From Trypanosoma brucei (taxonomy: Eukaryota): a stretch of 64,000 nt of DNA. The stretch is taken from positions 2,080,001-2,144,000 of the forward strand of contig CM000208.1 in NCBI GenBank assembly GCA_000002445.1. The letters run 5' to 3'. The stretch's first letter is position 1. Every line of letters starts with the position of its first letter. This document shows positions 7,045-63,656 of the stretch, one piece after another. The notes beneath the pieces are model-generated. The model ran no database searches and was not told where the DNA came from. It saw only the letters and a list, made by a program, of their open reading frames with translations. The translations under genes and the position numbers were made by a program.

Positions 7045-10000
7045 GTGCCCCCTCTTTCGTCTTTGCTATGGGGCCATGCGCACCCATATATAAAGGTGGC
7101 AATCCAAATCCAGAAGTGGGCACTTCCAAGGATGCAAAGTGGTGTGGGTAACATTACAACTCCCACGTCGCCGCAACAACTTGTTGTAGAAGCTCCTGCT
7201 GAACTCCTGGAAACCTGTGGAGTGCAGTATCCTGCGGCGGCTGATGTGAATGAGGGCGAGGTTGTGGATTCCAAAGCCCTTTCTGCAGCCCCCGGGGAAC
7301 GTGACGTCTTGGGATGTGGACCCACACTGCTGTCACTTTTATACAGCACCCAAAAGAAGGACGAAGTAGGGCATCGCGCAGTAACGCCAATGTTGTGGGA
7401 GTGCAACGGAGCTCAAGAAAGATGCCACTCATCGAAACGGGACTTTACAACATGTGTGAAGGCGCGGAAGTCCCCTCCTCCGGGCTCTGCAACGGGGTCT
7501 GGAACTGGGGCCATTAGGGATGTTCTCAGACCGTATAGAGAGTCACACAGTAAACGGTTTCGTGCGAAGGTAGTGGATTGCCGCGCGGCTCTTTCAGTAG
7601 ACGACCAAATCATCACCCTCAAAAACGAGAACGCTAAATATAAGGCTCAGTTACTCACCAAAGATGTGCAGCTGAAGGAGCTTGAGGCAGCACTTCGTGC
7701 GTTTCGAGCGCCGAGGGTTCCGGTTCCCTCGGGCGTGACAGAACCTGCTGAAGTAGGGGGGTGTTATAATGGCACGGACACTGAGGTGGCGCGTCTTACC
7801 AGAGAAAATGGTGAGGTGTGGAGGCGGCTGCAGCAATCACATGCCCAGTTGGCAGTCTGGAAAAGGGATGCACGGGTTTCGAAGTTGCAGGAGTTGAAGA
7901 TGGAGTTGGCTGTTTATCAGGCCGAAGTGGCTCGCCTCGCGGCTGAGGTTCCATCTAGTGGCGGCGCTGGAGGTGCACAAAATCACCCAGCTAGGTCGAA
8001 GTTACAGAGAGAAGCGGAGACTTCACGGGCAAAGGATCTCTTTATCGCTGAGCTAAAGGAAAGAGCGTCTGAGAACGCTACAGCACTGCGAAAATGCATG
8101 GACGACGCTATGCGCACAAAAAGTACCCTTGAGCAGGTCCGGGAGGAGAATGAGTTGATATCTAAGGAGTTGTGCTTGTTCAGAAAAACGGCCTTAGCTC
8201 TGACACGGGTGCAGGAGGAACTGAGGGCCACCCAGTGTGAGCTGGCTGAGGCTCGAGAGCGGCTTCAAGCCTTCGAACAGATGATGCACACGGTGGGAGG
8301 TCCTGAGGAGGTAAAGGCTGTGGTTAAGGAACGTGATGCCCTTTTGACCCTGTTAAAGCAGCATAATGCACGCGAAGCGGCATATCACCAGGAGTTTTTC
8401 ACCCGCCAGCGCGAAATGAAGGAGTCTATGGAGCGGTGCCTTCAGGAAGCTGTTCAACAAGAACGAGCACTGGCTCAGGATAGAGAGATGCAGCTTCGAC
8501 GCTCTTGCTTGATGTGGAAAGAAAGGTGCGAGCGACTGCTTCCAGACAAGTTGTTCGAACAGGGACGTCTTATAGAGGGTGGTGGAACCGTTGTAGAAGA
8601 TGAGGAACAGCAGACCGAGTTACACCAACTACCCAAGAAAATAGTAACCCCTTTCATGGATAATTCACAGAGGCAGCGGTTGCTTACAAAGCATATTGAC
8701 GATGTTCTAATCGTCCGGCAAGTCTCGTCGACGAGCACGCCGGCCAGTTCGTCAACCACTCTCTCCCCCGTGTCGGGTCTCTCGAAATTGTCCATAACCG
8801 ACACTACCCAGAGCCAAAGTAGCTCTCATGGCATGCAAATCAGCCACCCAGGGAACGAAGACGCATCTTCGCCTGTGAAGGGAAATGTAATGTCTTCACA
8901 GAAAGGGAGCTCTGGCGACGCTCCCGTTCCACCCACAGAGAGAACCGATCCCGACGGTGGCGCCGTTAGCTATCCAGCAAGCTCCGCCGTAATATCTGCA
9001 GAGCGGACTTCACTGGTTGAGAACAGCAAGGGCGATATCGTCACGTCGATTTCAACAGAGGAGGGTGCGGTTCAACTGCCTAGAGGACTGATGACCGCTG
9101 GTGTTGATTCTAGTGATGATTCAGGCAGCGAGTTGAGCGACCTTGCTGTGGGAATAGAGGAGGGCAAAACCCCATCATTTCGACTGCATGGCAATAGCGA
9201 TGGGCAATTAATCCCTGAAGTTGTCTCCAGGATGCCCTTAACTCTGCGCACGGTGAGCAGCGATGGCGTAGCTGCAGTTCTTACAGTTGCTTCACCACCT
9301 CCAAGAGTTTCTGTGCCACCGGCACCTGTCCCACGAGAATCTGCAGGATCTATTGCTTCATCTGAGAATAAACTCTCTGATGTGAATGTTGCCGTGCCAC
9401 CTCCAAGAGTTTCTGTGCCACCGGCACCTGTCCCACGAGAATCTGCAGGATCTATTGCTTCATCTGAGAATGAGCTCTCTGATGTGAATGTTGCCGTGCC
9501 ACCTCCGAGAGTTTCTGTGCCACCGGCACCTGTCCCACGAGAATCTGCAGGATCTATTGCTTCATCTGAGAATGAGCTCTCTGATGTGAATGTTGCCGTG
9601 CCACCTCCAAGAGTTTCTGTGCCACCGGCACCTGTCCCACGAGAATCTGCAGGATCTATTGCTTCATCTGAGAATGAGCTCTCTGATGTGAATGTTGCCG
9701 TGCCACCTCCGAGAGTTTCTGTGCCACCGGCACCTGTCCCACGAGAATCTGCAGGATCTATTGCTTCATCTGAGAATAAACTCTCTGATGTGAATGTTGC
9801 CGTGCCACCTCCAAGAGTTTCTGTGCCACCGGCACCTGTCCCACGAGAATCTGCAGGATCTATTGCTTCATCTGAGAATGAGCTCTCTGATGTGAATGTT
9901 GCCGTGCCACCTCCAAGAGTTTCTGTGCCACCGGCACCTGTCCCACGAGAATCTGCAGGATCTATTGCTTCATCTGAGAATAAACTCTCTGATGTGAATG

Positions 10001-10968
10001 TTGCCGTGCCACCTCCAAGAGTTTCTGTGCCACCGGCACCTGTCCCACGAGAATCTGCAGGATCTATTGCTTCATCTGAGAATAAACTCTCTGATGTGAA
10101 TGTTGCCGTGCCACCTCCAAGAGTTTCTGTGCCACCGGCACCTGTCCCACGAGAATCTGCAGGATCTATTGCTTCATCTGAGAATGAGCTCTCTGATGTG
10201 AATGTTGCCGTGCCACCTCCAAGAGTTTCTGTGCCACCGGCACCTGTCCCACGAGAATCTGCAGGATCTATTGCTTCATCTGAGAATGAGCTCTCTGATG
10301 TGAATGTTGCCGTGCCACCTCCGAGAGTTTCTGTGCCACCGGCACCTGTCCCACGAGAATCTGCAGGATCTATTGCTTCATCTGAGAATAAACTCTCTGA
10401 TGTGAATGTTGCCGTGCCACCTCCGAGAGTTTCTGTGCCACCGGCACCTGTCCCACGAGAATCTGCAGGATCTATTGCTTCATCTGAGAATAAACTCTCT
10501 GATGTGAATGTTGCCGTGCCACCTCCGAGAGTTTCTGTGCCACCGGCACCTGTCCCACGAGAATCTGCAGGATCTATTGCTTCATCTGAGAATAAACTCT
10601 CTGATGTGAATGTTGCCGTGCCACCTCCAAGAGTTTCTGTGCCACCGGCACCTGTCCCACGAGAATCTGCAGGATCTATTGCTTCATCTGAGAATGAGCT
10701 CTCTGATGTGAATGTTGCCGTGCCACCTCCAAGAGTTTCTGTGCCACCGGCACCTGTCCCACGAGAATCTGCAGGATCTATTGCTTCATCTGAGAATGAG
10801 CTCTCTGATGTGAATGTTGCCGTGCCACCTCCAAGAGTTTCTGTGCCACCGGCACCTGTCCCACGAGAATCTGCAGGATCTATTGCTTCATCTGAGAATA
10901 AACTCTCTGATGTGAATGTTGCCGTGCCACCTCCGAGAGTTTCTGTGCCACCGGCACCAGTTCCGTGA
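7045..10968 (+). CDS. Coiled-coil protein with a C-terminal tandem array of 34-aa repeats (repetitive cytoskeletal or antigen-like protein). The true start may be a downstream ATG, for example near 7132.
   Basis: A 1307-aa ORF. Codons ~185-520 have a heptad-rich, coiled-coil-type composition (KNENAKYKAQLLTKDVQLKELEAALRAF...), followed by a Ser/Thr-rich linker and then ~16.5 copies of NVAVPPPRVSVPPAPVPRESAGSIASSEN(K/E)LSDV. A polypyrimidine tract lies immediately 5' (6990-7040). Confidence 0.8.
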   Translation: MPPLSSLLWGHAHPYIKVAIQIQKWALPRMQSGVGNITTPTSPQQLVVEAPAELLETCGVQYPAAADVNEGEVVDSKALSAAPGERDVLGCGPTLLSLLYSTQKKDEVGHRAVTPMLWECNGAQERCHSSKRDFTTCVKARKSPPPGSATGSGTGAIRDVLRPYRESHSKRFRAKVVDCRAALSVDDQIITLKNENAKYKAQLLTKDVQLKELEAALRAFRAPRVPVPSGVTEPAEVGGCYNGTDTEVARLTRENGEVWRRLQQSHAQLAVWKRDARVSKLQELKMELAVYQAEVARLAAEVPSSGGAGGAQNHPARSKLQREAETSRAKDLFIAELKERASENATALRKCMDDAMRTKSTLEQVREENELISKELCLFRKTALALTRVQEELRATQCELAEARERLQAFEQMMHTVGGPEEVKAVVKERDALLTLLKQHNAREAAYHQEFFTRQREMKESMERCLQEAVQQERALAQDREMQLRRSCLMWKERCERLLPDKLFEQGRLIEGGGTVVEDEEQQTELHQLPKKIVTPFMDNSQRQRLLTKHIDDVLIVRQVSSTSTPASSSTTLSPVSGLSKLSITDTTQSQSSSHGMQISHPGNEDASSPVKGNVMSSQKGSSGDAPVPPTERTDPDGGAVSYPASSAVISAERTSLVENSKGDIVTSISTEEGAVQLPRGLMTAGVDSSDDSGSELSDLAVGIEEGKTPSFRLHGNSDGQLIPEVVSRMPLTLRTVSSDGVAAVLTVASPPPRVSVPPAPVPRESAGSIASSENKLSDVNVAVPPPRVSVPPAPVPRESAGSIASSENELSDVNVAVPPPRVSVPPAPVPRESAGSIASSENELSDVNVAVPPPRVSVPPAPVPRESAGSIASSENELSDVNVAVPPPRVSVPPAPVPRESAGSIASSENKLSDVNVAVPPPRVSVPPAPVPRESAGSIASSENELSDVNVAVPPPRVSVPPAPVPRESAGSIASSENKLSDVNVAVPPPRVSVPPAPVPRESAGSIASSENKLSDVNVAVPPPRVSVPPAPVPRESAGSIASSENELSDVNVAVPPPRVSVPPAPVPRESAGSIASSENELSDVNVAVPPPRVSVPPAPVPRESAGSIASSENKLSDVNVAVPPPRVSVPPAPVPRESAGSIASSENKLSDVNVAVPPPRVSVPPAPVPRESAGSIASSENKLSDVNVAVPPPRVSVPPAPVPRESAGSIASSENELSDVNVAVPPPRVSVPPAPVPRESAGSIASSENELSDVNVAVPPPRVSVPPAPVPRESAGSIASSENKLSDVNVAVPPPRVSVPPAPVP
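9283..10968 (+). repeat. Coding tandem repeat of a 102-bp unit, ~16.5 copies, >97% identical.
   Basis: Period measured directly: the ccaagagtttctgtgcca motif occurs at 9301 and 9403, giving 102 bp. Units differ only at aaa/gag (K/E) and cca/ccg (silent). The array terminates at a TGA created within a decayed last unit (cca cga gaa -> ccg tga gaa). Confidence 0.95.
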
Positions 10969-12488
10969 GAAGTACACCAGGTGACGATTTTGTTGTGTGT
11001 GTGTGTGGTTGCGTAGCGGTTGTGCATGGGCATTTCGCTATCGTTAAGGTTACTACGGCTTCTATTGAGTGAGTGCACACTTTTTTCATGCTTTTGGTAC
11101 GGCAAACATTTAGACTGTGAGGAAGGTTGCCATTAGTACTTGGTTCTTTGACGGTGCTGTGTTTCTACTCGTGGTGTATGGTGGAAGGTACCTGCTGCTT
11201 ACTTTTTCTTTGATGGGAAACAATCGCCACTGTAGGCGTCTTCCACTTTCAGTTTCCACATTGAATCGAACGGAATTAGTTTACTTCGCGATTCTTTTCG
11301 TTTGTAGAGTTATTTGTTTGACTTCTACTGTTATCCGTCCCCTGTGACTATCTCTAAATTTATGCACCTCCTTTTTGTCTTTTTTTTTTGCGGTCGCACA
11401 TGCGCTTTTCTTTGACACGTACGCGTATTGCCACCGCAGATGGGCACGTCAAGATGAGGTATGTGGTGTTCATATTCATAGAGTTCTTTGTGGTTGAGCG
11501 CCGCTATCGGTTGCAGTGTAAAGGATGCACAGTGGTGTCTGCTTTTATGCTTTGGATTTGTCCTGTCACTCGGCAATGAGTTTGTGCTTGTTTTTTTTCC
11601 TTCCGTCCATCTGGTACGTCGTTTATTTCTGCGCCATTCGTCATTATTATTCTTTAAAGTGCTGTGTGTGCACTTCGATATAATGGAGTACGGTATGCGA
11701 CGAAAGGGGGGGGTGGCGAGAGGAATCAATCCGGGGATACAGTTTTTAAAGTCATTTTTACCTATCGATTATTGATCATGTGTTACTCTGAAACACGTTG
11801 ACGCTCTGTTGCCTCATTTCCCGTTTGATTTTTTTCCCGCCATATTTATCGCAGCCGATAGTGGACACAATGTCGGCATGATTCACGTGTTTCTGCCGCA
11901 CTCTGATAAGCTAGTCGTGAACGTCGGTGTATGAGGCGTTTAAGTGTATGAGCAGGGGTCGGGAGGCGGTTCCGCTCCCGTTTTTCCAGTGTGTAGTTGC
12001 CTATATTGCTCTCCTCTACGGTATGGTGAAGCGCTTCCTTTGCTTGGAGGTCGGAGTGTGCGGTGTTTTGCCCCCCGTCTTGTTTGCGGTGCTGGCAGAG
12101 AAGCCGTTGATCTCCGCAAGGTGCCGTCGCACTCTGATGGTGGCAGTGGTGTAACCCAACCGAAGAAAAATTACCTGAAGTGCTGCATCTGCCGTTTTGA
12201 GCTGCAGCTTCGCCTTAGTTTACGGCATTCAGGAGTTACGGTGAGCTGATCGGGAAAGACAATGATGTGCTGGTACAGATTTTGCCACATTTGTGCATAC
12301 TTCCCCCTTGTGATGATATGCTTCTTGCTTGTACCCCTGCTTTTCCTTTTTTCATGTGGGACCACATCGCCTGGGAGATGATGCGTTAACCAACTTTCAC
12401 TTTCTTGTCTTAAAATTGAACCGCTACGTGACTTACTGTAAAGAGGATCAAGAGGTTGTGAAGGAGGATACAGTCACGAATAGCAGTT

Positions 12489-39562: not shown

Positions 39563-41377
39563 ACAAATGAAATAAACGAGATGTTTTTTGTTTTTGTTTT
39601 TTAGGCTGCAGCACCGTAGTCCCTGCTGGTGGTTGCATTTGGTTCTGCGACAGGAAGCTTAAGGGGGGCGGTGCCGACGTGCTTTTCTTCTTTTTTTTGT
39701 TGTTGTTACCTCATCTTTCAATGTGTTGCCGTATTTGTGTAGTGCGTAGATTTTACACCGTGCAGAGGTCTTTATGTGTGCATTTCAGCGCCGCATGTCT
39801 GCCCCATGCGCGTGGAGAACATCCGCTAGGGATAATAAATCATACATTACATCACGTCGATGCCGCGTTCCCTTCTGCATACGGTCATGTCTCGCCATTT
39901 CTTTGTATTAGTTGTCCTACCCATATCTTCATATCTGCGGTCTCGTGCTTTTTGCAGCATATTTACTTGCGTCCATGTGTATGGCTGCGTGAGCTTCGAC
40001 TCGTGTCATGTTCCATGCTTGCTGTGATTTGGTACGCTCCATTTTGTCATTCCTATCTTTCTATTTTTCTATTTTTCTATTTTTACTTTTAACTTTTTAA
40101 CTTGTGCAGTTTTTTTTTGTTTCTGTTCTTCCTTCTTCTTTCTTTTTTTTTTCTTAATCTTCCATGTCCGTTCGCATCAGTTTTGGAGGTGAGAAAGCAG
40201 GGCCGTTGGTGGGACAAATATTTTCACCACTAGCTGGGCGTGGGGAATGGGCAACACGGGTGCTTGTTACTCTTGTGTGTAATTGTACGTATATATTATG
40301 TGGTATATATATATATATATACGTGCATATGACCTTCGTCAGTTTATCGCTTCCGGCTTCCCCCACCGGCACGTTTTGTATGTTATATTTTCACCCATGC
40401 TTGTTTTTATTTAATTTTTTTTTTTAAAAGAGAAGAAAAACAATGTTTTTGTCGGTTCTTGTTGGCGAATGTTGTTTGTTTCCGGACGCAATGGTTTGCG
40501 GGATGTGGGATGTGGATATGGAGGAGAAGTGTCGATGTTTCTTTTCTTTTTTTTATTTGTTTGTTCAAGGTTTCTGGAAGAATTTTAATGCGCATATGCA
40601 CAGGAGGTTTCAGCAGCTGGGAACTGTGATAACATAAAGAAAGGAGAAGCACTTGAAGTTATCGGAGAATCGGCACGTGTTGTGAGAGTTTTTCTTTTTT
40701 TTTTTTTTTGTATTGACGTGTAAGGGACTTTGGGGCGTTGATCGCTGTGAGGGGAGGAAAATGTGGGGAAAGATGAGAGGAAGTTTTAAAGGAAAATTTG
40801 GGATCATATTCTTACAAGACTTCTTTGGTGGCGAAGTTACGTTTAGTTTTTCGTGTCGGTATCGCCGTTTCGGGAGGTGGTCGCACCACTTCAACGTTTC
40901 ACAATTAAATTCCATTACAACATTCGTATATTTCAACCTTTACACTGTTTCGTGCCGATAATGTTTTAATGTTTAAAAAAAAAATTAAGGTATCTGATCT
41001 TTTGTATGCAGTTAGGCCCATCAAATTGCGCCACTGAGCATTATATCGCGACTTCGTGTGCACTTTTGGCACTTCTCTCCTTTCCCTTTTTTAAAAATAT
41101 CTCTTTGCTTTCATGTACAATTGCTTCCCCGCCCTCGATTACTATTAACCCACCTCCTGCTTCTTATAATGTTTTCTTTTTTTTTTTTTTGCTTCTTTTC
41201 ACCGTTTGCTCACCTTACAATTTATCTTCATCAGCTGCGTGGCGTTGATTCCGCCCACCTCCTTTAATGGTGGGGTCGAGGACCATCCCGACATCCACGT
41301 TGGGGCGAAACCTGCGGGAAACGGAGGGGGCTGAAACCGACCGATTCGGTTTTTTTATAAGCTCAGAAGAAAAGGCC

Positions 41378-42289
41378 ATGGAGGAGGAATTCCTTCGTGT
41401 CCACCCCGAGAAGTTGAGTGTACGAGAGCGGTGGTCGAAAGCGTTGCTGCGGTGGGATGGTTGCGCTCATATGAAAAAGAAAAAGTTATGTCGAGTCGGT
41501 GTTCCGCAGTCACAAAGAAAAACAGTGTGGCCACTGCTTCTGATGACATATGGTTGGCAACTTGAGAAATACGGGGATTATCATCTTCTTATGAGCCAGC
41601 AGCCGCGCGATGCAGCAATGTTTGAAATAATCGAGCGTGACCTTGGAAGGACATTTCCAACCCATAGATTGTTTAATAAACCGGGTAGCACAGGGCAAAT
41701 GGGGTTGCGTAGTATTCTTCGCGCCTATGCTAATCTCAACCCGGAGACGGGGTATGTTCAAGGAATGGGCTTTCTCGTAGGAACACTTCTTATCCAAATT
41801 GGGGATGAAGAGAGCACATTCAGTGCATTTGTTTCGATTATGGAGAACCCAAGATACTCCATGGCCAAGTTATATGCTCCTGGATTCCCCCTTCTCTTTG
41901 TTCGCTTACATCAACTGCAGAAACTGTTGGGGCGCCATTGCAAGAAATTGCTCAAACGGCTCATGGAGTATGGCATTGAGTTGTCTACCTTTGCAGCCAA
42001 CTGGTACCTGACATTGTTTGCATACCACTTCAACTTTGGTTTACTCTCCCGTATTTGGGATATGTTCCTTTGTGAGGGGTGGAAGATCATTCATCGTGTG
42101 GCGATTGCTCTTCTATTGCTGCACAAAAGCGCTCTCGATCGCGCGAGGGATGGTGCAGAGTTACTGATTGCACTGAACACCGCTCATGAAGGAAAGGATG
42201 AGGTGGAGGTCATCCGTAAGGCCCTAAGTGTGAAGTTTAAGACGGCTGATTTAGTCCGGTGGGAGAGGAAGTTTTGTCAACAGCTCTAA
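41378..42289 (+). CDS. TBC-domain Rab GTPase-activating protein (TBC1D10/EPI64/Msb3-like), the short paralog.
   Basis: Arg-finger motif IERDLGRTFP (IxxDxxR) and Gln-finger motif GYVQGMGF (YxQ). The downstream helices (WYLTLFAYHF, RIWDMFLCEGWKIIHRVAIALL) are collinear with the second TBC gene in the window. The ORF track opens at 41267, and the first ATG (MEEEFLRV) is at 41378. Confidence 0.85.
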   Translation: MEEEFLRVHPEKLSVRERWSKALLRWDGCAHMKKKKLCRVGVPQSQRKTVWPLLLMTYGWQLEKYGDYHLLMSQQPRDAAMFEIIERDLGRTFPTHRLFNKPGSTGQMGLRSILRAYANLNPETGYVQGMGFLVGTLLIQIGDEESTFSAFVSIMENPRYSMAKLYAPGFPLLFVRLHQLQKLLGRHCKKLLKRLMEYGIELSTFAANWYLTLFAYHFNFGLLSRIWDMFLCEGWKIIHRVAIALLLLHKSALDRARDGAELLIALNTAHEGKDEVEVIRKALSVKFKTADLVRWERKFCQQL

Positions 42290-55258: not shown

Positions 55259-57025
55259 GTGATTATGGCTTCGTTATCACCCCTGGAGTCAAGAAGAAAC
55301 ATGCAATTGTCCCCTTATGCTTCCCCGCGGCGCAACCCAATGGCAACACTCCACACGCGTGAAGCCCCTTTGGAGGGCCGTGAGGCAGAGGCTGCGTTGA
55401 TATCTGCCACGCTCGCAAATGCTCAGCTGCGCGCATCACAGGCCGCCGTAGAGCAGCGCTCGGAAGAGGTGGATGATCTCCGAGAGGCCCGAGATGCCCT
55501 GGAGAGGGAAATGGCGGAAAAGGACGAGGAGAGCCAGGCAGCAGCAACATACTTTGAAAAGCAAATGACTTTGGTGAAGGAGGTGAACCGCAAACTCAAG
55601 GAAGAATTGGTTAACGAGCGTGCGACGGCTGAACTGCGTATGGAAGAGGTTGTGGGCAAAATGCAGGAGGAACTTCAAGAGCGTGATAGCCTTATAGCAA
55701 CTTTGAAACAGCGCCTTGAGGATGTTGAGAGTGACCTCAGAAGCGTTATCGAGTTCAGGGACGCGCGCGATGCGCACGAAAAGGAAATTAAAGAACTTCG
55801 TGTAGTTTACGCAGAAGAGTGTGAAAACCATCAGCGCAATGAGCGAGAGATGCGGCTTCAGTGCATGGAAGAGCGTGTGAGGCTTCGGGAAAAGGAGGAA
55901 AAGTATGAGCGAGAGCGGGAAGAAGAGGTTGCACGTTTAGCGCGTAGTTACCTTAGCAAAAAGACGCGTGCTATAGAAGAACAGAACAAAAGCCTCGAGA
56001 CACACATCTCCTTTCTTTCCAGTGACGCAGATGCTGCGCGAAATGAAGCAGAGACTTTGCAAAAGACTAACAACGGGCTAAGGCGAGATGCCGAACTAGC
56101 ATCTTCGGTGGAGACAATGCACGCAGTTCATCACGCGAAGCAGAGGAACGAGATTGCCCTCCTCAGAGATCAAGTGAGAACCACCGAAGACAACTTAAAT
56201 AGTTCATTGGAAGAGTATGAGAAGCGATTGCAGAAACAGGAGAAGATCCATGCGGCTGAGATGATGAAACTCTCAAGTGAGCGTGACAAGTGGCGGTCAA
56301 CCGCAGAGAATCTGCGTGCTGACTTGCTAAAGATGCGTTCAATTTCAGAAAAGTTAATCGAACAACGTTCCGACATGGAAACGTTCTTTCACCAGGCCCT
56401 GGAACAGGTTCGCCAGGAGGTGTCAGAGGAACGACGGAACGCTCCGCACAAAATTTGTTTCCGCAAGCCTCCCAAAGGGATCCCGTCTGATTTGCTGCAG
56501 CTTACGCGGGGCAGGGAGCCGCTCATGATCGGTGACCGCAGCCATGTGATGCCGACATCGCATTCCACACTTACGAAAAAGGTGGTCGATGCCAACGTGT
56601 CGTGCACAAACAGCAGCGTAGTTTCTCGTAGTGCCGACACGGGGGGCGGGTCACTTCCATTAATCACAATGTCGGGATCTCCGTTCTTTTCTCCAGCAAA
56701 TGTGCTTGTGCCACCAATAGAATGGCGCAGCACCAGTCGTGAAATGCAGGCGACGAACGGCGGTAGACTCGTTGAGGAGCGTCCATTGGGAATCAGCGAC
56801 CTCCTGAGTGTTCCAACTGCGCCGAAGATAAAGGACCTCCATACAGTTGATATATCGCAACTAAGTTGGTCCGATAAGGAGCGCGTATTGCAATTGTTGT
56901 TCAAGCACATGAAGAGGGGGGCCACTGCAAAAAAAACGGAAAAGCGGGTCCCCACGCATGACACGAATTTTTTGTCGATCACTCCATCTGCGACCCCTGA
57001 AGTAAACACATTTCTCACGGATTAA
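55259..57025 (+). CDS. Coiled-coil protein (588 aa), hypothetical.
   Basis: A strongly heptad-patterned, Glu/Arg/Lys/Leu-rich sequence over ~350 residues (EEVDDLREARDALEREMAEKDEESQ...), followed by a Ser/Thr/Pro-rich tail. Confidence 0.65.
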   Translation: MIMASLSPLESRRNMQLSPYASPRRNPMATLHTREAPLEGREAEAALISATLANAQLRASQAAVEQRSEEVDDLREARDALEREMAEKDEESQAAATYFEKQMTLVKEVNRKLKEELVNERATAELRMEEVVGKMQEELQERDSLIATLKQRLEDVESDLRSVIEFRDARDAHEKEIKELRVVYAEECENHQRNEREMRLQCMEERVRLREKEEKYEREREEEVARLARSYLSKKTRAIEEQNKSLETHISFLSSDADAARNEAETLQKTNNGLRRDAELASSVETMHAVHHAKQRNEIALLRDQVRTTEDNLNSSLEEYEKRLQKQEKIHAAEMMKLSSERDKWRSTAENLRADLLKMRSISEKLIEQRSDMETFFHQALEQVRQEVSEERRNAPHKICFRKPPKGIPSDLLQLTRGREPLMIGDRSHVMPTSHSTLTKKVVDANVSCTNSSVVSRSADTGGGSLPLITMSGSPFFSPANVLVPPIEWRSTSREMQATNGGRLVEERPLGISDLLSVPTAPKIKDLHTVDISQLSWSDKERVLQLLFKHMKRGATAKKTEKRVPTHDTNFLSITPSATPEVNTFLTD

Positions 57026-57758
57026 ACAATTTAATCAACTCGTCTTTACCTCCTTTTGCATTTGGGCGCAATTTGTCTGTATCCTAGGGCGTTCTCCCCC
57101 TCTATGTTTGTTTTTGTTTTTCTGGTACGGAAACCCACGCTGTCCATGCCGATTTCCCCCCTTCCTTTTCCCCTCTGCACTGTTTGATTGGTTGTTCCCG
57201 TGTCCCTTACGGGAAGGCCTTCAATGAGAGGGAGTGTGACATGTTCCATTACTTCAAATTCTTTAATAATATACCCTTTTTTCCATTGTTTGTGTTGTGA
57301 GGTTCCTGAACATGCCTCCTTCACTCGAGGTGAGCGGAGCTATCAATGTTTCCTTCTTCCCCTTCATATACTTATTGGTACTCCACCGCATTGTACCTTT
57401 CCTGGACCTCTTTTCGCGGCAACGCGAATGTGTGTATCCGTACGTGGTGTTTTGCTGTGAGATTCGAGTGTGTAATGTTTTCGGACGGTATCATGGGGGG
57501 GGGGGGGACCATGTACCAAATTCACTGTTTGCAAGAAAGTGGTGTCTGTCTACCTTCATTATTTTTGTTGTGCGCCTGTACCCACCTGTTTTTTAAAAAC
57601 CTTTCTTCTGCTTCTCACATTACTGGATAATTTATTAATGCCCTCTGATGTTTTAGGTTGCACCTAATTGGGTTTTTGCTTCGTCGTCTTGCTATGCTAC
57701 CTCTTTCTCACCCTGTTTGTTTTCAATTTCCTGTTAGTAGAGCGTAATAGGGCACTGG

Positions 57759-60488
57759 ATGATCCCCGTGGCAGGCCGCCGCAAAGGCCTGAGTCAGGCA
57801 CCTAATTTGGGGTCTGCGGGGAACAATGAGACAAACTCATCGCTTGGTGGAGGCTTCACCACCTCAACCGGAGCAGCACCTTCACCTGCTACCGCCGGGG
57901 ACGCCCTTTCGTTTCTTGACTTCGATAACGACACCGGACCCACACAAGCTTCCGCACCCGTCGCATCACGAAGGGGAGCCCCCACAGCTGCACCCCCTCA
58001 GCGGGACACACTTTCGTTTCTCGATTTCGATGACGATGAAGGACCTTCCAAGCCTTCAGCACCTGCTGCGTCAAGGAGGACGGCACCCCCAGTCGCCCCC
58101 GCCCCTGCGCAGAGCGCCCCGTCATTTCTTGATTTTGACGATGATGACGGACCCACAAAACCACCCCCGCGATCGCAACCTCCGGCATCTGCCGCCTCCA
58201 GAGGGGCACCCGCTCAGGCAGTGCCCTCCTTTCTCGATTTCGATGACGATGCTCCTGCAAATGTTCCTTCAACACCTCAACCCTCTGCTGCGGTGTCTTT
58301 AGAAATCACTAATCGGTGGCACGAACTGCAGAAGGAGCTCCAACGCGTGCAAGTTGAGACCCTCAGTTGCGAGGAGGTGATTCGGAAGTTCGAAAGCGGC
58401 GAACACGAATTGTGCCTGGAAGTGGGGACTCTAGACGAACAAGTGCAGCAGAAGCAGGCGGCGGGGGAGAAGGCAGCTGCAGCGCGAGAAGAGTTGGAGA
58501 GGGCGCTGGAACTAAGACGCCAACAGCTCACAGAAGAGAACGAGGCAAAGCACAAACAACTATTAGTGGAGGGTGTCAATACCATGCGAGAGCGGTACGA
58601 GGACGAGCTGAGTACTCTAACTGCATCTGTAGAAGACCAGAAAGTGAACCTGTTGGCTGTTGAAGAGAAGCACAGCACTATGGATGGGTCGATCAGCAGT
58701 GTTGAATTATATGAACGAGCGGTTTGTCAACTGCAAGAGAGGTTGAAGGCAACGCTGCGCGACATAAGCGCTGCGGTTTGCTTGCGAATCAAACCGTCGC
58801 TCACTAATTGCATCAGAGACACCGTAGCACAGTTTGCCCAGGAGAGGTCGGATATGCAGTGCAATGATCGGCGTAGAAGACGCGAGCAGTTGGACACTTT
58901 CCAGAAGAATGTGGATAAAGGATTCTCATCATTTTGTGAAGAACGGCGAACTAAACATCAGTCGCGAGTGGACTCCATCTTTGGTGGAGAGAGATTTCGT
59001 TTCCAAGCAGAGGTTGAGCGACGGTTTACCACGTCTAGGATGGAGTTTATGGAACGACAGAAGGAGCTTACAGCTGAGGCAAAGAAAGGAGCGCTGATTA
59101 CTTTTGAGGAGATGACGCGTCGAGCAGCCGCAGATATGGAGGTGTTTCAGAGAAAGATGAAGGAAGAACTGAGGTTGATGGAGGAGCGATATGCTGCTGA
59201 GTTGGCTCATCTTGCGCGGCTTCAGGCTTCGGAGAAGGCGGCGGCACTTCGACCCCGCTGTGAAAATGATGAGCTGGGCTCCAGCGTTACTGCCGCCACG
59301 CCTTCAGTTTGTAAGGCAGTTGAAAAGGATGTGAGGTACTTGCGGGAGCGCGTGGAACAGATTAAGCAGTCTGTCTCACTCGATATCCAGGATCTTTCTA
59401 TTGCTTCACAGCACCCTAGATGTGAATCTCTCTCTGCGTTGGGGAAGGAGCGCATGCTGGCGGAACTGGAGGAAAAAGTGCGTCTGCTTAGTCGCCAGTT
59501 CGGTGCTCAGTGGCAGCGTTTTAAATCTGCAGTGGGACCGCTGCATCAATCCGTGCAGCTGATGGTACGTGGGTTGCAGGACGGGCGAGTGAGAGCCGCT
59601 GCTCAACAACAGGAAACTGAATGTATTTATCGTGAGTGGACCCAAAGTGTTAGGAAGGAATTGTCAATGTGTTTGACAAGTGGTGGGGCGTCGTCAGAGT
59701 CTGCGGAATTACAAAGCGGGCTTGTGTCTATGACTCGGGTAGTGGAGATGGCACGGGCGCAGGTTCAGGCTGTACTGGAGGCTCAGAGGCATCGCTCCGA
59801 GGTGCTAAGGGGCTTTAATTCCGAGGTACAGGAGAGCCTATCTGCACTTGTTAAGCAGCGCGTAGCCTCAAACGGCACCCTCCATTCTGTATTTGATGAG
59901 TATGAGCGTCTGTCCCATGCGGCGGCGGAGGTGGAGGCGAAGCGTAGGGCCCTTGAGGTGGCAGCAGAAAATTACGATCACGCGAAACAAGTATTGGAAA
60001 AGGAACGTGAAACATTCGATGGTAGGTTGAAGGTGGCGCAAGAGCTTGGCGTCAAACTCCGGATCGATTCAGAGAAACTGGAGAGGAAGGCAGCGCGGTA
60101 TGCGCGCGCTCGGCTTTCTGGTGGCTCACAGTTTGTACGGGCTGTTACAATGGAAAAACCACTTCGTGATCGTCTGCAGTGCGGAAAACGTATGGAGTGG
60201 AGGAGTCAATCTCACGGACATTCTCCCAGAAAGCGGGCGGCGGATTGTGTGTCTGGCCACCCATCGCCTAGTTCCGCGGAGTACAGGCGCTCTGCAACTG
60301 CGTCGAACGGTGGAGATGTGCTCGACTTTGTTACTCTTCTGAGTTTTGATGATGCCGTGGGGCAAGGTGACTCTGGAGACTTGCAACACAAGCGGCAACC
60401 GTGCCAGTATAGAAGCACTACGTCGTTTGATCCGTCAAGTTGTGGCAGTGACGGAACGTACTTTACAACACCTTCAACTCTCAACTAA
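57759..60488 (+). CDS. Coiled-coil protein (909 aa) with an N-terminal disordered region carrying four SFLDFDDD-type linear motifs.
   Basis: N-terminal ~170 aa: four copies of (A/T)(L/P)SFLDFD(N/D)D(E/D)GP spaced 35-37 aa apart inside an Ala/Pro/Ser-rich sequence, which is a degenerate ~108-bp DNA repeat. The rest is long coiled-coil sequence. Confidence 0.7.
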   Translation: MIPVAGRRKGLSQAPNLGSAGNNETNSSLGGGFTTSTGAAPSPATAGDALSFLDFDNDTGPTQASAPVASRRGAPTAAPPQRDTLSFLDFDDDEGPSKPSAPAASRRTAPPVAPAPAQSAPSFLDFDDDDGPTKPPPRSQPPASAASRGAPAQAVPSFLDFDDDAPANVPSTPQPSAAVSLEITNRWHELQKELQRVQVETLSCEEVIRKFESGEHELCLEVGTLDEQVQQKQAAGEKAAAAREELERALELRRQQLTEENEAKHKQLLVEGVNTMRERYEDELSTLTASVEDQKVNLLAVEEKHSTMDGSISSVELYERAVCQLQERLKATLRDISAAVCLRIKPSLTNCIRDTVAQFAQERSDMQCNDRRRRREQLDTFQKNVDKGFSSFCEERRTKHQSRVDSIFGGERFRFQAEVERRFTTSRMEFMERQKELTAEAKKGALITFEEMTRRAAADMEVFQRKMKEELRLMEERYAAELAHLARLQASEKAAALRPRCENDELGSSVTAATPSVCKAVEKDVRYLRERVEQIKQSVSLDIQDLSIASQHPRCESLSALGKERMLAELEEKVRLLSRQFGAQWQRFKSAVGPLHQSVQLMVRGLQDGRVRAAAQQQETECIYREWTQSVRKELSMCLTSGGASSESAELQSGLVSMTRVVEMARAQVQAVLEAQRHRSEVLRGFNSEVQESLSALVKQRVASNGTLHSVFDEYERLSHAAAEVEAKRRALEVAAENYDHAKQVLEKERETFDGRLKVAQELGVKLRIDSEKLERKAARYARARLSGGSQFVRAVTMEKPLRDRLQCGKRMEWRSQSHGHSPRKRAADCVSGHPSPSSAEYRRSATASNGGDVLDFVTLLSFDDAVGQGDSGDLQHKRQPCQYRSTTSFDPSSCGSDGTYFTTPSTLN

Positions 60489-61355: not shown

Positions 61356-63656
61356 ATGAACATGATATCCCTCAATTTCACCCTCTATCGCTTTGTGTGT
61401 GATAAGGTAACGTTTAGCAACATCTTTGCAGTTGATGCTGAGAGCCGGCGCTTCCCCGAGAACTCGCCCTTTTACTGCTGTTGGGCTATTGTTCCACGGC
61501 AACGTGCTGTGTCAACGGTGAAGGCAGCTGAGTGGAGTGGTTGTACACCTGCGTCGTATTTCAAGTCCCATGGTAATGAAATTGTTCTGCCCTTTAATAA
61601 TGCAGTGGGGACTGTTGACATTGAGGGGGACACAAATGTTATTACCTTTAATGTGAGACCATACAGCAACTCGAACGAACCCATATCGGTGGTGGCAAAG
61701 GGGACTCTCGACCCACGGCCGTATGTGGGGAGGTCAAACAGGAACTATGCCATTAAGCTTCGTGACGTTAGCGGCCAGACGATTGGTAAACTTCTCTTTG
61801 CGCTGGAGGCAAGGGAGGAGTCGGGATGTGTCATCAGTACACCGCTGGGAATAGATGGTCAGCCTGGTGTGCATACAGGATTGTCCAATAATCTGTTAAA
61901 CGCAGTGGGTGTCGGGGCGTCTGCAGGCAACCTTGCCCTAAGGAACCGTAACGAAAATGGGAGGAATGGTTATGGCACTGTTGATGGAGGGAAGGTCCAA
62001 TATGACAAGAGGGAGCCGTACGCGCAGCGGGATAACTCTTCATTTTCGAATTCTGTTACACCGCAGGCCGGGTCGTTGGAAGGGATGCCTATGCAAGCGT
62101 TCAATTGTCTGAGAGCCCCAACCTCCACGTCGGCAACTACCGAATGCGATCCCCACTCTTACGTAAAGCTAGATTTGTGCATTGAACGGATTGTTGTCAA
62201 GGATGATTCCAGCGGGCAAGAAAATCCTGTACCATTGCTTCTCGGTGCGAATTACTACTTGAAGGTACGATTCGGTGGGGGCGTGTCCACCACCCAGTCT
62301 GTTGAGTGCCAGGACCCGAGGAAGATCACGTACAAAGACCACATGACGTTCATAGAGGACGTGTGCAGTAACGACAGGCTGCGTTTTTCACTATGGGAGA
62401 ATGGAAAGCAGGTGGCTGGTTTTTCGTTGAACCCCACGAAGTTTCGTGTTGATATTGGTATGCAGAAGGAGTACGCAATCCCTTTCAGATATTATCCCAC
62501 TCGTCAGTCAGCCTTTCTTGAGTTAACTGTGCAGCGCATGGGAGAGCCAAGCCTTGAGGATGTTGAGAAGACAATTGATTCCTTTCGGGTGGTGCGGGGA
62601 ATTCCATTTGGTGGTATGAGGTTCATGGACGAGCAGCTTCAGTTAAGGAGATCCGAGGGGGAAAGTAGCGAGCATCTCAACACAAAGACGATAGGAACTA
62701 CCAGCGGGCACTCGACAACTAACCTCTCATCACACACACCGGAAAAGGCAGTCGAGAAGGGTCAGAGGCCCGAGAAACTATGCAGAGAGGAGTGCGGAAA
62801 ACAACACACGCCACTTCGCGCTGAGCACTCTTCCCCTCCGGTTGCTGCAGAGAAAAAGGACTTTGGTCAACCTGGGCACCACCAAACCAAAGCCAAAAAC
62901 GGGGATAGACATGATACCCACACCAATCCTGCTGTAACCCAACTGGCACCTTCAGAAAGGGTTGGTGAGAACATTACTAACAGTGTTAATTCATCGTTTA
63001 TTGTAAAGCAAGTGTCGCCAGTAAGAAAAGGCAGTTCTGCGAAGCGACATGCTCTGCTGCGTAGGATGACCGAGGAGGAGGTGGTTCCTGCCTCTGCGAT
63101 GCGGCAATACCCAGGCAATGATGCCCCAACGTCTATGAAAACAGTGGTGAGGAGTATGGAAACCACACGCTCCGCTTCACCATTGCGTGTGACAGGGGCC
63201 CCTAGGGGAGACCAGCGGCCTCGAAAACTTGAAGATGAGTATCAAAGCCTTACGGGAGGAAGTAAATTGCTGAGCATGGAGGATGCTTCGCAACCCCGCC
63301 GTAATTCACCAAGCACCTCACCCGACCAGCGGGTACCCGACAACGCCATTGACCGTGAGCGGCTGGTGGATTCACTGCTGCATCGCATGAACGGTCGACC
63401 AGGAATGAACACCACTCTGATGGAGGAATGGATGGAGTGGCGACACACATGTCTTTCCTCTCGCAGTTCTCGATCAGGGTCGGAAGGGAGTGCGTTCTGC
63501 CGTGAAGATTCCGTTGCGTCTCTGGAAATTCGCAGTCATGCCGTAAGCCCCCGCCCAACGAAGTCCCTGTCCCATGCTGCAGACATGCGACCATACACAC
63601 CTGTTATCACAAGGCGGGCTGCATCCGACGGCAGGCCACCAATCCCGGGCCGATAG
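61356..63656 (+). CDS. Hypothetical protein (766 aa) with probable C2-like beta-sandwich domain(s) and a Ser/Arg/Pro-rich C-terminal half.
   Basis: The segment LDLCIERIVVKDDSSGQENPVPLLLGANYYLKVRFGGGVSTTQSVECQDPRKITYKDHMTFIEDVCSNDRLRFSLWENGKQVAGFSL follows the C2-domain strand pattern (LxVxVxxAxxL...D...YVKV...T.V...NP.WNE.F.F.....L.F.V.D.D.....IG). A second, similar segment lies upstream (ISVVAKGTLDPRPYVGRSNRNYAIKLRDV). Confidence 0.45.
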   Translation: MNMISLNFTLYRFVCDKVTFSNIFAVDAESRRFPENSPFYCCWAIVPRQRAVSTVKAAEWSGCTPASYFKSHGNEIVLPFNNAVGTVDIEGDTNVITFNVRPYSNSNEPISVVAKGTLDPRPYVGRSNRNYAIKLRDVSGQTIGKLLFALEAREESGCVISTPLGIDGQPGVHTGLSNNLLNAVGVGASAGNLALRNRNENGRNGYGTVDGGKVQYDKREPYAQRDNSSFSNSVTPQAGSLEGMPMQAFNCLRAPTSTSATTECDPHSYVKLDLCIERIVVKDDSSGQENPVPLLLGANYYLKVRFGGGVSTTQSVECQDPRKITYKDHMTFIEDVCSNDRLRFSLWENGKQVAGFSLNPTKFRVDIGMQKEYAIPFRYYPTRQSAFLELTVQRMGEPSLEDVEKTIDSFRVVRGIPFGGMRFMDEQLQLRRSEGESSEHLNTKTIGTTSGHSTTNLSSHTPEKAVEKGQRPEKLCREECGKQHTPLRAEHSSPPVAAEKKDFGQPGHHQTKAKNGDRHDTHTNPAVTQLAPSERVGENITNSVNSSFIVKQVSPVRKGSSAKRHALLRRMTEEEVVPASAMRQYPGNDAPTSMKTVVRSMETTRSASPLRVTGAPRGDQRPRKLEDEYQSLTGGSKLLSMEDASQPRRNSPSTSPDQRVPDNAIDRERLVDSLLHRMNGRPGMNTTLMEEWMEWRHTCLSSRSSRSGSEGSAFCREDSVASLEIRSHAVSPRPTKSLSHAADMRPYTPVITRRAASDGRPPIPGR

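What the first reader, a model, noticed from the sequence alone, without database searches (positions are those of the whole stretch)
57759..58300. Four spaced SFLDFDDD acidic-aromatic motifs in a disordered N-terminal region of a long coiled-coil protein.
The motif LSFLDFD(N/D)D(E/D)GP recurs four times with 35-37-residue spacing. The underlying ~108-bp DNA units have diverged everywhere except at the motif, which indicates selection on the short linear motif itself. Its composition (hydrophobic-hydrophobic-D-hydrophobic-D with an acidic trail) is loosely clathrin-box-like (L-phi-x-phi-[DE]), though it matches none of the clathrin-box, FFAT or gamma-ear patterns strictly. That combination would fit an endocytic or trafficking adaptor with multivalent binding.
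Basis: inference. Interest (0 to 1): 0.5.

Follow-up and report, generated by a model that had tools for sequence, protein, structure and literature searches.

The report
Repeated acidic-aromatic docking motif, trypanosome protein
An uncharacterised, kinetoplastid-only coiled-coil protein of Trypanosoma brucei (most likely Tb927.10.8810, reported at the basal body) carries four conserved copies of the peptide SFLDFD(D/N)D in its disordered head; this looks like a real multivalent docking array, but nothing found here ties it to clathrin.

Summary
ORF 57759..60488 (+) encodes 909 aa. SFLDFD occurs at residues 51, 86, 122 and 157, spaced 35/36/35 residues, inside a predicted disordered N-terminus (1-180) ahead of a ~600-residue helical rod.

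The window is T. brucei TREU927 chromosome 10. The ORF is UniProt Q38A93, directly upstream of TbSmee1 (Tb927.10.8820), so it is most likely Tb927.10.8810. [quoted passage not shown]

The repeat units are 37-53% identical in DNA outside the motif. The motif codons differ almost only synonymously.

Motif presence is conserved, but copy number is not:
- T. b. gambiense: 3 (one exact 35-aa unit missing)
- T. congolense: 3
- T. vivax: 5 near-identical 23-aa units
- T. cruzi, T. grayi, T. theileri: 1
- Leishmaniinae: three looser [PL]-[SAD]-[FW]-L-acidic motifs

The clathrin/adaptor reading is not supported. The motif fails the strict clathrin-box, W-box, FxDxF, DP[FW], gamma-ear, FFAT and SIM patterns. 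The positions that resemble a clathrin box are not kept outside Trypanosoma.

The closest sequence look-alike is the alphavirus/USP10 L/ITFGDFD motif that binds G3BP, but the glycine essential there is leucine here.

Best reading: a new acidic-aromatic docking motif array on a coiled-coil scaffold, partner unknown. Moderate interest.

The parts
57759..60488 (+). Whole ORF, 909 aa plus stop. Exact match to T. brucei TREU927 XP_823105 / EAN78277 / UniProt Q38A93; inferred systematic ID Tb927.10.8810.
   Evidence: exact sequence look-up. The next gene is TbSmee1 = Tb927.10.8820. Gene order fits Tb927.10.8750 being a TBC protein seven genes upstream and Tb927.10.8830 = FAZ5 lying beyond Smee1.
57759..58298 (+). 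N-terminal disordered region, aa 1-180. Rich in Ala, Pro and Ser; net charge -8.
   Evidence: AlphaFold2 low-confidence segment (pLDDT <50; block means 25-34) with no secondary structure; composition.
57759..57788 (+). N-terminal peptide MIPVAGRRKG, the most conserved short element of the family (M-x-x-P-[VI]-A-G-R-R-[KR]-G).
   Evidence: Alignments A1 and A2: M1 and R7 invariant; P3, A5, G6 and R8 in at least 90% of 24 kinetoplastid sequences.
57906..57941 (+). Motif copy 1, LSFLDFDNDTGP (aa 50-61), type A (Leu at -2).
58011..58046 (+). Motif copy 2, LSFLDFDDDEGP (aa 85-96), type A.
58119..58154 (+). Motif copy 3, PSFLDFDDDDGP (aa 121-132), type B (PAQxAP upstream, Pro at -2).
   Evidence: The PAQ.APSFLDFDDD form is shared with T. 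congolense.
58224..58259 (+). Motif copy 4, PSFLDFDDDAPA (aa 156-167), type B.
57903..58007 (+). 35-aa unit (aa 49-83) missing in frame from the 874-aa alleles of T. b. gambiense DAL972 and one T. b. equiperdum assembly. This is a copy-number polymorphism (4 vs 3 motifs).
   Evidence: alignment gap of exactly 35 columns; coordinates.
58299..60110 (+). Helical rod, aa 181-784. Six long predicted helices, with heptad-like periodicity in most segments.
   Evidence: No Pfam or PDB domain beyond coiled-coil noise.
60111..60485 (+). C-terminal disordered region, aa 785-909.
   Evidence: pLDDT <50.
60318..60353 (+). C-terminal acidic-hydrophobic motif VLDFVTLLSFDD (aa 854-865). Family form is [DE]-F-[STV]-[ST]-x-L-[IVL]-[PL]-x-[DE]-[DE].
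   Evidence: Alignment A1 and the sequences (e.g. DFSTSLVPIGDDEEE, DFSTDLVPLEDDDD, FTDFVSLLTVDD).
60465..60479 (+). Near-terminal TTPST (family form SLTTPS), conserved to the deepest homologues.

Best explanation
The ORF encodes a kinetoplastid-specific ~100-kDa scaffold, most likely Tb927.10.8810, which one paper reports at the basal body. It has a disordered N-terminal head (aa 1-180), a ~600-residue helical, largely coiled-coil rod, and a disordered tail. The four SFLDFD(D/N)D peptides are the T. brucei form of an old family-wide short linear motif, [PL]-[SAD]-[FW]-L followed by an acidic run. Within Trypanosoma this motif is fixed as [PL]-[SA]-F-L-D-F-[DE]-[DN]-[DE]. I infer that each copy is an independent, low-affinity docking site. 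On this view the Phe/Leu/Phe side chains enter a hydrophobic groove on a folded partner and the Asp run contacts a basic rim. Several copies on flexible linkers of unconstrained length would then bind the partner, or several partner molecules, by avidity at the N-terminal end of the rod. Shown: the motif, its conservation, its disorder context, and the variable copy number and spacing. Inferred: that it binds a partner, how it binds, and the avidity logic. The partner is not identified.
For: The motif is real and far beyond chance. Purifying selection acts at the peptide level: the six SFLDFD codons are identical in protein across four units that differ synonymously at five of those six codons, while the linkers are only 37-53% identical in DNA. 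The motif is kept in all Trypanosoma orthologues while the linkers diverge. Copy number changed repeatedly: 1 in T. cruzi, T. grayi and T. theileri; 3 in T. congolense; 3 or 4 within T. brucei; 5 near-identical 23-aa units in T. vivax. Spacing is 23 to 41 residues, as expected for independent sites on flexible linkers rather than a folded repeat. Leishmaniinae, Phytomonas and deeper homologues have mostly one to three related [FW]-L-acidic motifs at matching positions; two of the deepest homologues gave none under the filter used. The N-terminus is predicted disordered and the rest helical. No enzymatic or known domain was found. The family is confined to kinetoplastid-type sequences among 1.84 billion representatives. 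Basal-body localisation and kinetoplastid specificity are stated in PMC12816148.
Against: No partner is known, and none could be tested because no complex prediction was available. The motif matches no established motif class strictly. The basal-body location is one sentence in one paper, and it is linked to this ORF by gene order, not by a direct sequence-to-ID table. I could not find the gene in the supplementary text held for the TrypTag, transition-fibre or cell-cycle phosphoproteome papers. A 3-copy allele exists within T. brucei, so the fourth copy is dispensable at least in those strains. A search of 5.8 billion proteins with a composite of motif variants returned nothing usable, so I cannot say whether other trypanosome proteins share the motif, as a true docking motif class usually would.
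Confidence: 0.6

Rival explanations
1. One reading: the motifs are degenerate clathrin-box or adaptor-ear ligands, and the protein is a multivalent endocytic or trafficking adaptor or tether near the flagellar pocket. It would bind the clathrin terminal domain or the AP-1 gamma/beta ears.
For: FLDFD matches four of the five clathrin-box positions, L-[LI]-[DEN]-[LF]-[DE] (consensus from my own knowledge). It also matches the relaxed pattern [LF][IVLMF].[IVLMF][DE]. F-x-D-F resembles the DFxDF / psi-G-[PDE]-[psi LM] gamma-ear ligands (my own knowledge). Multiple weak motifs in a disordered region are typical of clathrin-associated proteins, as stated in PMC5399782. The basal body sits at the base of the flagellar pocket, the only endocytic site in T. 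brucei (PMC10652038). The motif is most amplified in African trypanosomes, which lack AP-2 (PMC5399782).
Against: The strict clathrin-box, W-box, FxDxF, DP[FW] and GAE patterns all fail. Position 1 is Phe, never Leu, in all 17 Trypanosoma instances. Outside Trypanosoma the second hydrophobic position is usually Asp, Glu or Gly, so the box-like shape is not the conserved feature. The gene is not among the clathrin-associated proteins named in the text of PMC5399782. It is described as basal-body localised. AP-2 alpha-ear motifs are moot in T. brucei.
Confidence: 0.13
2. The motifs are ATG8-interacting (LIR-like) sites, [ST]-F-x-x-[hydrophobic] with acidic flanks, possibly enhanced by phosphorylation of the preceding Ser, which lies in a CK2-type S-x-x-D context.
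For: SFLDF matches the relaxed LIR pattern [EDST].{0,2}[WFY]..[ILVFY], and S-F-L-D is a CK2-type S..D site in all four copies (patterns quoted from memory of ELM). The shape S-F-[VL]-[ED]-[IF] resembles the optineurin LIR SFVEI (my own knowledge).
Against: The canonical LIR needs L/I/V at the last core position; here it is Phe. The acidic residues lie downstream rather than upstream. T. vivax has Ala instead of Ser in all five copies. Non-Trypanosoma orthologues (WLDD, FLDD, FLRD) do not keep the [WFY]xx[LIV] spacing.
Confidence: 0.07
3. The motifs are FGDF-like ligands for an NTF2-like or similarly grooved domain, used to cross-link a dimeric partner, as the two L/ITFGDFD repeats of alphavirus nsP3 do with G3BP.
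For: L-S-F-L-D-F-D is identical to L-T-F-G-D-F-D at five of seven positions, and the Ser-for-Thr change is conservative. The matches include both essential Phe residues and the preferred Asp. The nsP3 motif also works in tandem copies, each binding one NTF2-like domain (PMC4450067).
Against: In G3BP binding the Gly is essential, and even Gly-to-Ala abolishes binding (PMC4450067). Here that position is an invariant Leu. I identified no kinetoplastid G3BP-like partner. The wider family motif lacks the second Phe.
Confidence: 0.06
4. The motifs are not ligands for a specific partner. They are aromatic-acidic 'stickers' that drive self-association or condensation of the scaffold, for example against its own Arg-rich segments or the basic N-terminal AGRRKG peptide. 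Alternatively they are leftovers of a repeat expansion with little function.
For: The region is low-complexity and disordered. Copy number and spacing vary, even within T. brucei. The protein also carries basic patches (RRKG, RRRRRE).
Against: Generic stickers rarely keep an exact 8-residue sequence, including non-aromatic positions, across species as distant as T. brucei and T. cruzi while the neighbouring residues drift. Synonymous-only change in the SFLDFD codons argues against neutrality.
Confidence: 0.14

Closest known systems
FGDF motif (L/ITFGDFD repeats of Old World alphavirus nsP3; USP10) binding the NTF2-like domain of G3BP
   Same: Nearest in sequence: L-[ST]-F-x-D-F-D. Two Phe residues three apart with Asp after each. 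It occurs in tandem copies in a disordered region, each copy binding one partner domain (PMC4450067).
   Different: The position that is an essential Gly there is an invariant Leu here. The context is a cellular basal-body scaffold rather than a viral or stress-granule protein. No kinetoplastid G3BP-type partner is known. The older family form lacks the second Phe.
Clathrin box, L-phi-x-phi-[DE], and other multi-copy clathrin/adaptor ligands in disordered regions (AP180 DLL/DLF, Eps15 DPF, stonin/synaptojanin WxxF-acidic, gamma-ear DFxDF)
   Same: A hydrophobic-hydrophobic-D-hydrophobic-D shape with an acidic trail. Several weak copies on flexible linkers next to a folded or coiled part. Plausible avidity logic.
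   Different: Position 1 is Phe, not Leu. There is no upstream acidic cluster or Gly as in gamma-ear ligands, and no Trp. The box-like positions are not conserved across the family. The reported location is the basal body, not the clathrin structures.
FAM21 (WASH complex) tail with ~21 LFa motifs, L-F-[DE]3-10-L-F (from my own knowledge)
   Same: An array of short aromatic-Leu-plus-acidic-run motifs in a long disordered region, with copy number giving multivalent binding.
   Different: The order is F-L rather than L-F, and the motif shape, protein family and lineage all differ. The strict LFa pattern is absent.
LC3/ATG8-interacting region (LIR)
   Same: [ST]-F-x-x-hydrophobic core with acidic neighbours; matches the relaxed LIR pattern.
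   Different: Phe sits at the position that is normally L/I/V. The acidic run is downstream. The spacing is not kept outside Trypanosoma.

Membership tests
Clathrin box (L-[IVLMF]-x-[IVLMF]-[DE]) | Leu at position 1, followed by hydrophobic, any, hydrophobic, acidic | tested here: not met
   The regex finds no match in aa 1-200 of any of five Trypanosoma sequences. Position 1 is Phe in every instance; positions 2-5 fit.
Clathrin box (L-[IVLMF]-x-[IVLMF]-[DE]) | The box positions are what is conserved in orthologues | tested here: not met
   Among 37 instances from non-Trypanosoma kinetoplastids, position +3 is mostly D/E/G (D17, E4, G4, F2). Only [FW]-L plus acidic residues is conserved.
Clathrin box (L-[IVLMF]-x-[IVLMF]-[DE]) | Binds the clathrin heavy-chain terminal domain | not testable with these tools
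   No complex prediction or binding assay was available. The gene is not named among clathrin-associated proteins in the text of PMC5399782.
AP-1 gamma-ear / GAE ligand ([DE][DES][DEGAS]F[SGAD][DEAP][LVIMFD]) | Acidic residues before Phe, a small residue after it, and a second hydrophobic residue three positions on | tested here: not met
   No regex match. The upstream residues are A-L-S or A-P-S, and the residue after Phe is Leu. Only F-x-D-F fits.
AP-2 alpha-ear ligands (FxDxF, DP[FW], WxxF-acidic) | Pattern present and AP-2 present in the organism | tested here: not met
   FxDxF and DP[FW] are absent and the motif has no Trp. [quoted passage not shown]
FFAT motif (E-[FY]-[FYK]-D-[AC]-x-[ESTD] after an acidic tract) | Small residue at position 5 and an upstream acidic tract | tested here: not met
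   No regex match. Position 5 is Phe and the upstream residues are not acidic.
LIR / ATG8-interacting motif | [WFY]-x-x-[LIV] core with acidic or phosphorylatable flank | tested here: inconclusive
   The canonical pattern does not match the motifs, but the relaxed [EDST].{0,2}[WFY]..[ILVFY] pattern matches all copies. The spacing is not kept outside Trypanosoma, and Ser is Ala in T. vivax.
FGDF motif (G3BP NTF2-like domain ligand) | F-G-D-F with both Phe and the Gly essential | tested here: not met
   Both Phe residues and the Asp are present, but Gly is replaced by an invariant Leu. PMC4450067 reports that Gly-to-Ala abolishes binding.
SUMO-interacting motif | [VIL]-rich four-residue core with an acidic flank | tested here: not met
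   No regex match; the core is built on Phe.
Coiled-coil scaffold | Long uninterrupted helices with heptad periodicity | tested here: met
   Helices 181-308, 315-340, 345-492, 517-549, 560-640 and 648-784. Power at period 3.5 is 5.3x the mean, and 22-36% of windows exceed the shuffled 95th percentile in four of five segments. Oligomeric state not tested.
Short linear motif under selection | Lies in disorder, conserved against diverging flanks, recurs independently | tested here: met

The most novel reading that the evidence does not exclude
[PL]-[SA]-F-L-D-F-D-D-[DE] is a previously undescribed, kinetoplastid-specific class of docking motif. It would recruit a lineage-specific partner, possibly membrane-traffic machinery such as AP-1 or clathrin, to the basal body at the base of the flagellar pocket. 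Its independent amplification in all three African trypanosome lineages (3-4, 3 and 5 copies, against 1 in T. cruzi, T. grayi and T. theileri) would be an adaptation linked to their AP-2-free, very fast endocytic system.
Probability: 0.12. Interest if true: 0.65.

Novelty: new variant of a known kind. Interest (0 to 1): 0.36.

Why it matters
About half of trypanosome proteins have no known function, and many basal-body and flagellar-pocket components are lineage-specific coiled-coil proteins with no domains to go on. A short motif that is invariant across Trypanosoma, varies in copy number between and within species, and matches no catalogued class gives a concrete experimental handle. A 14-residue peptide and its Phe-to-Ala mutant could identify the partner directly. 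If the partner were trafficking machinery, this would link the basal body to flagellar-pocket traffic. If not, it still defines a new docking motif and a function for Tb927.10.8810 and its Leishmania 'L6202.3-like' orthologues. As it stands this is a well-supported sequence feature with unknown biology, not a surprise to specialists.

Tried and rejected
1. Domain searches (Pfam on the protein and on 24 family members; a profile against all PDB sequences) gave only coiled-coil noise, including a weak SAS-6 coiled-coil hit at E=5.5e-4 that I do not credit.

2. A composite query of eight motif variants against 5.8 billion proteins, meant to find other proteins with the motif, gave 84 word-sharing candidates and none at E<=10. 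This is uninformative, because short motifs cannot reach significance at that database size.

3. Literature searches for FLDFD, SFLDFD and related strings found nothing relevant. 'L6202.3' found nothing.

4. Supplementary text of the cullin, TrypTag, transition-fibre and cell-cycle phosphoproteome papers has no held occurrence of Tb927.10.8810. No supplements are held for the clathrin cryomilling paper.

5. I considered the BILBO1/BILBO2 N-terminal domain as a partner and rejected it. Its ligand in FPC4 centres on Ser-Pro, and the pocket leads to a negatively charged trench, which suits an acidic motif poorly (PMC8360560).

6. I considered a phospho-Ser requirement at the CK2-type S-x-x-D site and down-weighted it, because T. 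vivax has Ala at that position in all five copies.

7. I did not run fold searches on the AlphaFold model. Mean pLDDT is 52 and the model is all helix, so matches would be meaningless.
Full report
**What and where.** The window is Trypanosoma brucei brucei TREU927 chromosome 10. The 909-aa product of ORF 57759..60488 (+) is an exact match to XP_823105 / EAN78277 / UniProt Q38A93, annotated 'hypothetical protein, conserved'. The next ORF (61356..63656) is an exact match to Q38A92, which is TbSmee1 = Tb927.10.8820.

All ORFs of at least 250 aa in the window except one (9072..11105, which lies within a larger + strand ORF) are on the + strand. Counting genes back from Tb927.10.8820 in steps of 10 puts a RabGAP-TBC gene (41267..42289) at Tb927.10.8750. 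A published table does list that ID as the T. brucei hit for a TBC-domain protein (PMC7002101). Tb927.10.8830 is FAZ5 (PMC4406125). The ORF is therefore most likely Tb927.10.8810; this is an inference from gene order and consecutive accession numbers.

**The observation.** FLDFD occurs at residues 52, 87, 123 and 158, so SFLDFD starts at 51, 86, 122 and 157. The four copies are:
- LSFLDFDNDTGP
- LSFLDFDDDEGP
- PSFLDFDDDDGP
- PSFLDFDDDAPA

Spacing is 35, 36 and 35 residues. One such hexapeptide is expected 2.7e-5 times in this region, and only 1 of 20000 shuffles had any hexapeptide three or more times. There is no other six-frame match in the window.

Motif-anchored DNA units are 37-53% identical outside the motif, against 30% for shuffles, so a weak trace of common origin remains. 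The eight motif codons are 71-96% identical. Their differences are synonymous apart from the Asn/Asp position of unit 1. Tandem Repeats Finder reports no ~105-bp repeat.

AlphaFold2 on a five-sequence alignment gives a low-confidence segment (pLDDT <50; block means 25-34) with no secondary structure for residues 1-180. It gives nearly continuous helix for 181-784 and low confidence again for 785-909. A simple heptad test shows 3.5-residue periodicity at 5.3x mean power.

**Family and conservation.** A word-indexed search found only Trypanosoma relatives. A profile search of 1.84 billion representatives found 25 proteins. The named ones are all kinetoplastids:
- T. congolense, T. cruzi, T. c. 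marinkellei, T. grayi, T. theileri, T. vivax
- Phytomonas EM1
- Leishmania tarentolae, Leptomonas pyrrhocoris, Porcisia hertigi and Novymonas esmeraldas, where the family is called 'L6202.3-like protein'

The rest are unnamed metagenome or read-archive assemblies. There are no Pfam domains and no meaningful PDB relatives.

Motif counts:
- T. brucei TREU927 and T. equiperdum OVI: 4
- T. b. gambiense DAL972 and another T. b. equiperdum assembly: 3, through loss of exactly one 35-aa unit (aa 49-83)
- T. congolense: 3
- T. vivax Y486: 5 near-identical 23-aa units, NTPAFLDFDDPPAASRSRPAPQQ
- T. cruzi, T. c. marinkellei, T. grayi, T. theileri: 1 (ALSFLDF[ED][ND]E). Under the filter used, T. grayi and T. 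theileri also show an upstream EPDWLF motif; T. cruzi has EPDWLFAEN there by eye.

Leishmaniinae and other kinetoplastids have up to three looser motifs at corresponding places: PSWLDDLD, D-x-L-[SADG]-F-L-[DN]... and P-A-F-L-x-D-D. Two of the deepest homologues gave none under the filter used.

Position-specific counts give a family consensus of [PL]-[SAD]-[FW]-L followed by acidic residues, and a Trypanosoma consensus of [PL]-[SA]-F-L-D-F-[DE]-[DN]-[DE].

So the motif is old and is kept while the linkers drift. Its copy number and spacing (23-41 residues) are free to vary. It was amplified independently in the three African trypanosome lineages: by old, diverged duplications in T. brucei and T. 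congolense, and by a recent expansion in T. vivax.

**Which motif class?** I tested patterns written from memory of the ELM resource and the primary literature. These have no match:
- strict clathrin box
- W-box
- FxDxF
- DP[FW]
- gamma-ear/GAE
- FFAT
- SIM
- kinesin-light-chain W-acidic
- LFa
- NPF
- DLL/DLF

Only a relaxed clathrin box allowing Phe at position 1, the relaxed LIR pattern, and a CK2-type S..D site match.

Three points weigh against the specific readings:
- The Ser is Ala in T. vivax.
- The second hydrophobic residue, which makes FLDFD look like a clathrin box, a gamma-ear F-x-D-F or a LIR, is not conserved outside Trypanosoma.
- African trypanosomes lack AP-2 (PMC5399782).

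The closest sequence look-alike I know is the L/ITFGDFD repeat of alphavirus nsP3 and the FGDF motif of USP10. These bind the NTF2-like domain of G3BP, one domain per copy. There, however, the Gly is essential, and even Gly-to-Ala abolishes binding (PMC4450067). Here that position is an invariant Leu.

The BILBO1/2 N-terminal domain was considered as a partner and rejected.

**Interpretation.** The most economical reading is a multivalent docking array on the disordered head of a coiled-coil scaffold. In this reading each copy puts Phe/Leu/Phe into a hydrophobic groove and its Asp run against a basic rim, and several copies on flexible linkers add avidity or gather several partner molecules. 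The conservation pattern, disorder and copy-number behaviour are shown. Binding, its mode and the partner are inferred.

The clathrin/adaptor proposal remains possible (about 0.13), because the motif is box-like in Trypanosoma and the basal body lies under the only endocytic site of the cell. But no test run here supports it, and the reported localisation and family-wide conservation point elsewhere. Other rivals are ATG8 binding, an NTF2-like partner, and non-specific 'sticker' behaviour.

**Other conserved short elements** suggest a multi-motif scaffold:
- the N-terminal peptide M-x-x-P-[VI]-A-G-R-R-[KR]-G, the best conserved part of the whole family
- a C-terminal acidic-hydrophobic motif, VLDFVTLLSFDD in T. 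brucei and DFSTxLVPLxDDD-like elsewhere
- a near-terminal SLTTPS

**Verdict.** The feature is real and its interpretation as a selected, multivalent linear motif is sound. The endocytic label is unsupported. It is a new variant of a familiar design, of moderate interest, and directly testable with peptide pull-downs and motif mutants.

Noticed in passing
window 57759-57788 (aa 1-10): The extreme N-terminal peptide MIPVAGRRKG is the most conserved short element of the family (M-x-x-P-[VI]-A-G-R-R-[KR]-G), from T. brucei to Leishmaniinae and deeper kinetoplastids. It is more conserved than the SFLDFD motifs. It may be a second, basic docking or targeting peptide.
   Followed up: partly
window 60318-60353 and 60465-60479 (aa 854-865, 903-907): There are two conserved C-terminal motifs: an acidic-hydrophobic one (VLDFVTLLSFDD; DFSTxLVPLxDDD-like in other genera) and a near-terminal SLTTPS/TTPST. 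The latter contains a Thr-Pro site that could be a proline-directed kinase or polo-box-type site; that is speculation.
   Followed up: partly
window 57903-58007 (aa 49-83): There is an in-frame 35-aa copy-number polymorphism within T. brucei. TREU927 and T. equiperdum OVI have 4 motifs (909 aa), while T. b. gambiense DAL972 and another T. b. equiperdum assembly have 3 (874 aa). This is consistent with unequal recombination between the motif-coding stretches of units 1 and 2.
   Followed up: partly
P0034 (T. vivax Y486 orthologue), aa ~40-155: There are five near-identical 23-aa tandem units, NTPAFLDFDDPPAASRSRPAPQQ. This is a recent expansion of the same motif with Ala in place of Ser and a different period from T. 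brucei. It could be partly an assembly effect; a second T. vivax gene model (P0014) starts downstream of the repeats.
   Followed up: no
P0018 / P0036 (unnamed trypanosomatid, JGI and Logan assemblies) versus window 55259-57025: A 1328-aa protein joins a full homologue of this family to the C-terminal half of a homologue of the upstream neighbour ORF (55259..57025). The match is 31% identity over 382 aa, E=6e-31. It is either a real gene fusion hinting at a functional link between the two neighbours, or a merged gene model.
   Followed up: partly
window 55259-57025 (+): The upstream neighbour (presumably Tb927.10.8800) is another domain-less protein, apparently coiled-coil from its sequence, of 588 aa read from a GTG. 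This exact sequence is not in the protein collection, so the real start is probably a downstream ATG. It has a conserved C-terminal stretch, VDISQLSWSDKERVLQLLFKHM.
   Followed up: no
window 61356-63656 (+): [quoted passage not shown] Its adjacency to a basal-body protein in one transcription unit is probably coincidental. Synteny (this family followed by a Smee1-like sequence) also appears in the read-through model P0019.
   Followed up: partly
window 41267-42289, 44626-45882, 46760-53269, 53661-54470 (+): The same + strand gene array holds two RabGAP-TBC proteins, a 2169-aa protein with adenylate-kinase/AAA and FAP206-like matches, and an OTU1-type deubiquitinase with a UBX-like domain.
   Followed up: no
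window 57092-57365 and 57495-57507: The intergenic region upstream of the ORF has several polypyrimidine tracts, as expected for trans-splicing signals, and a run of 13 G.
   Followed up: no
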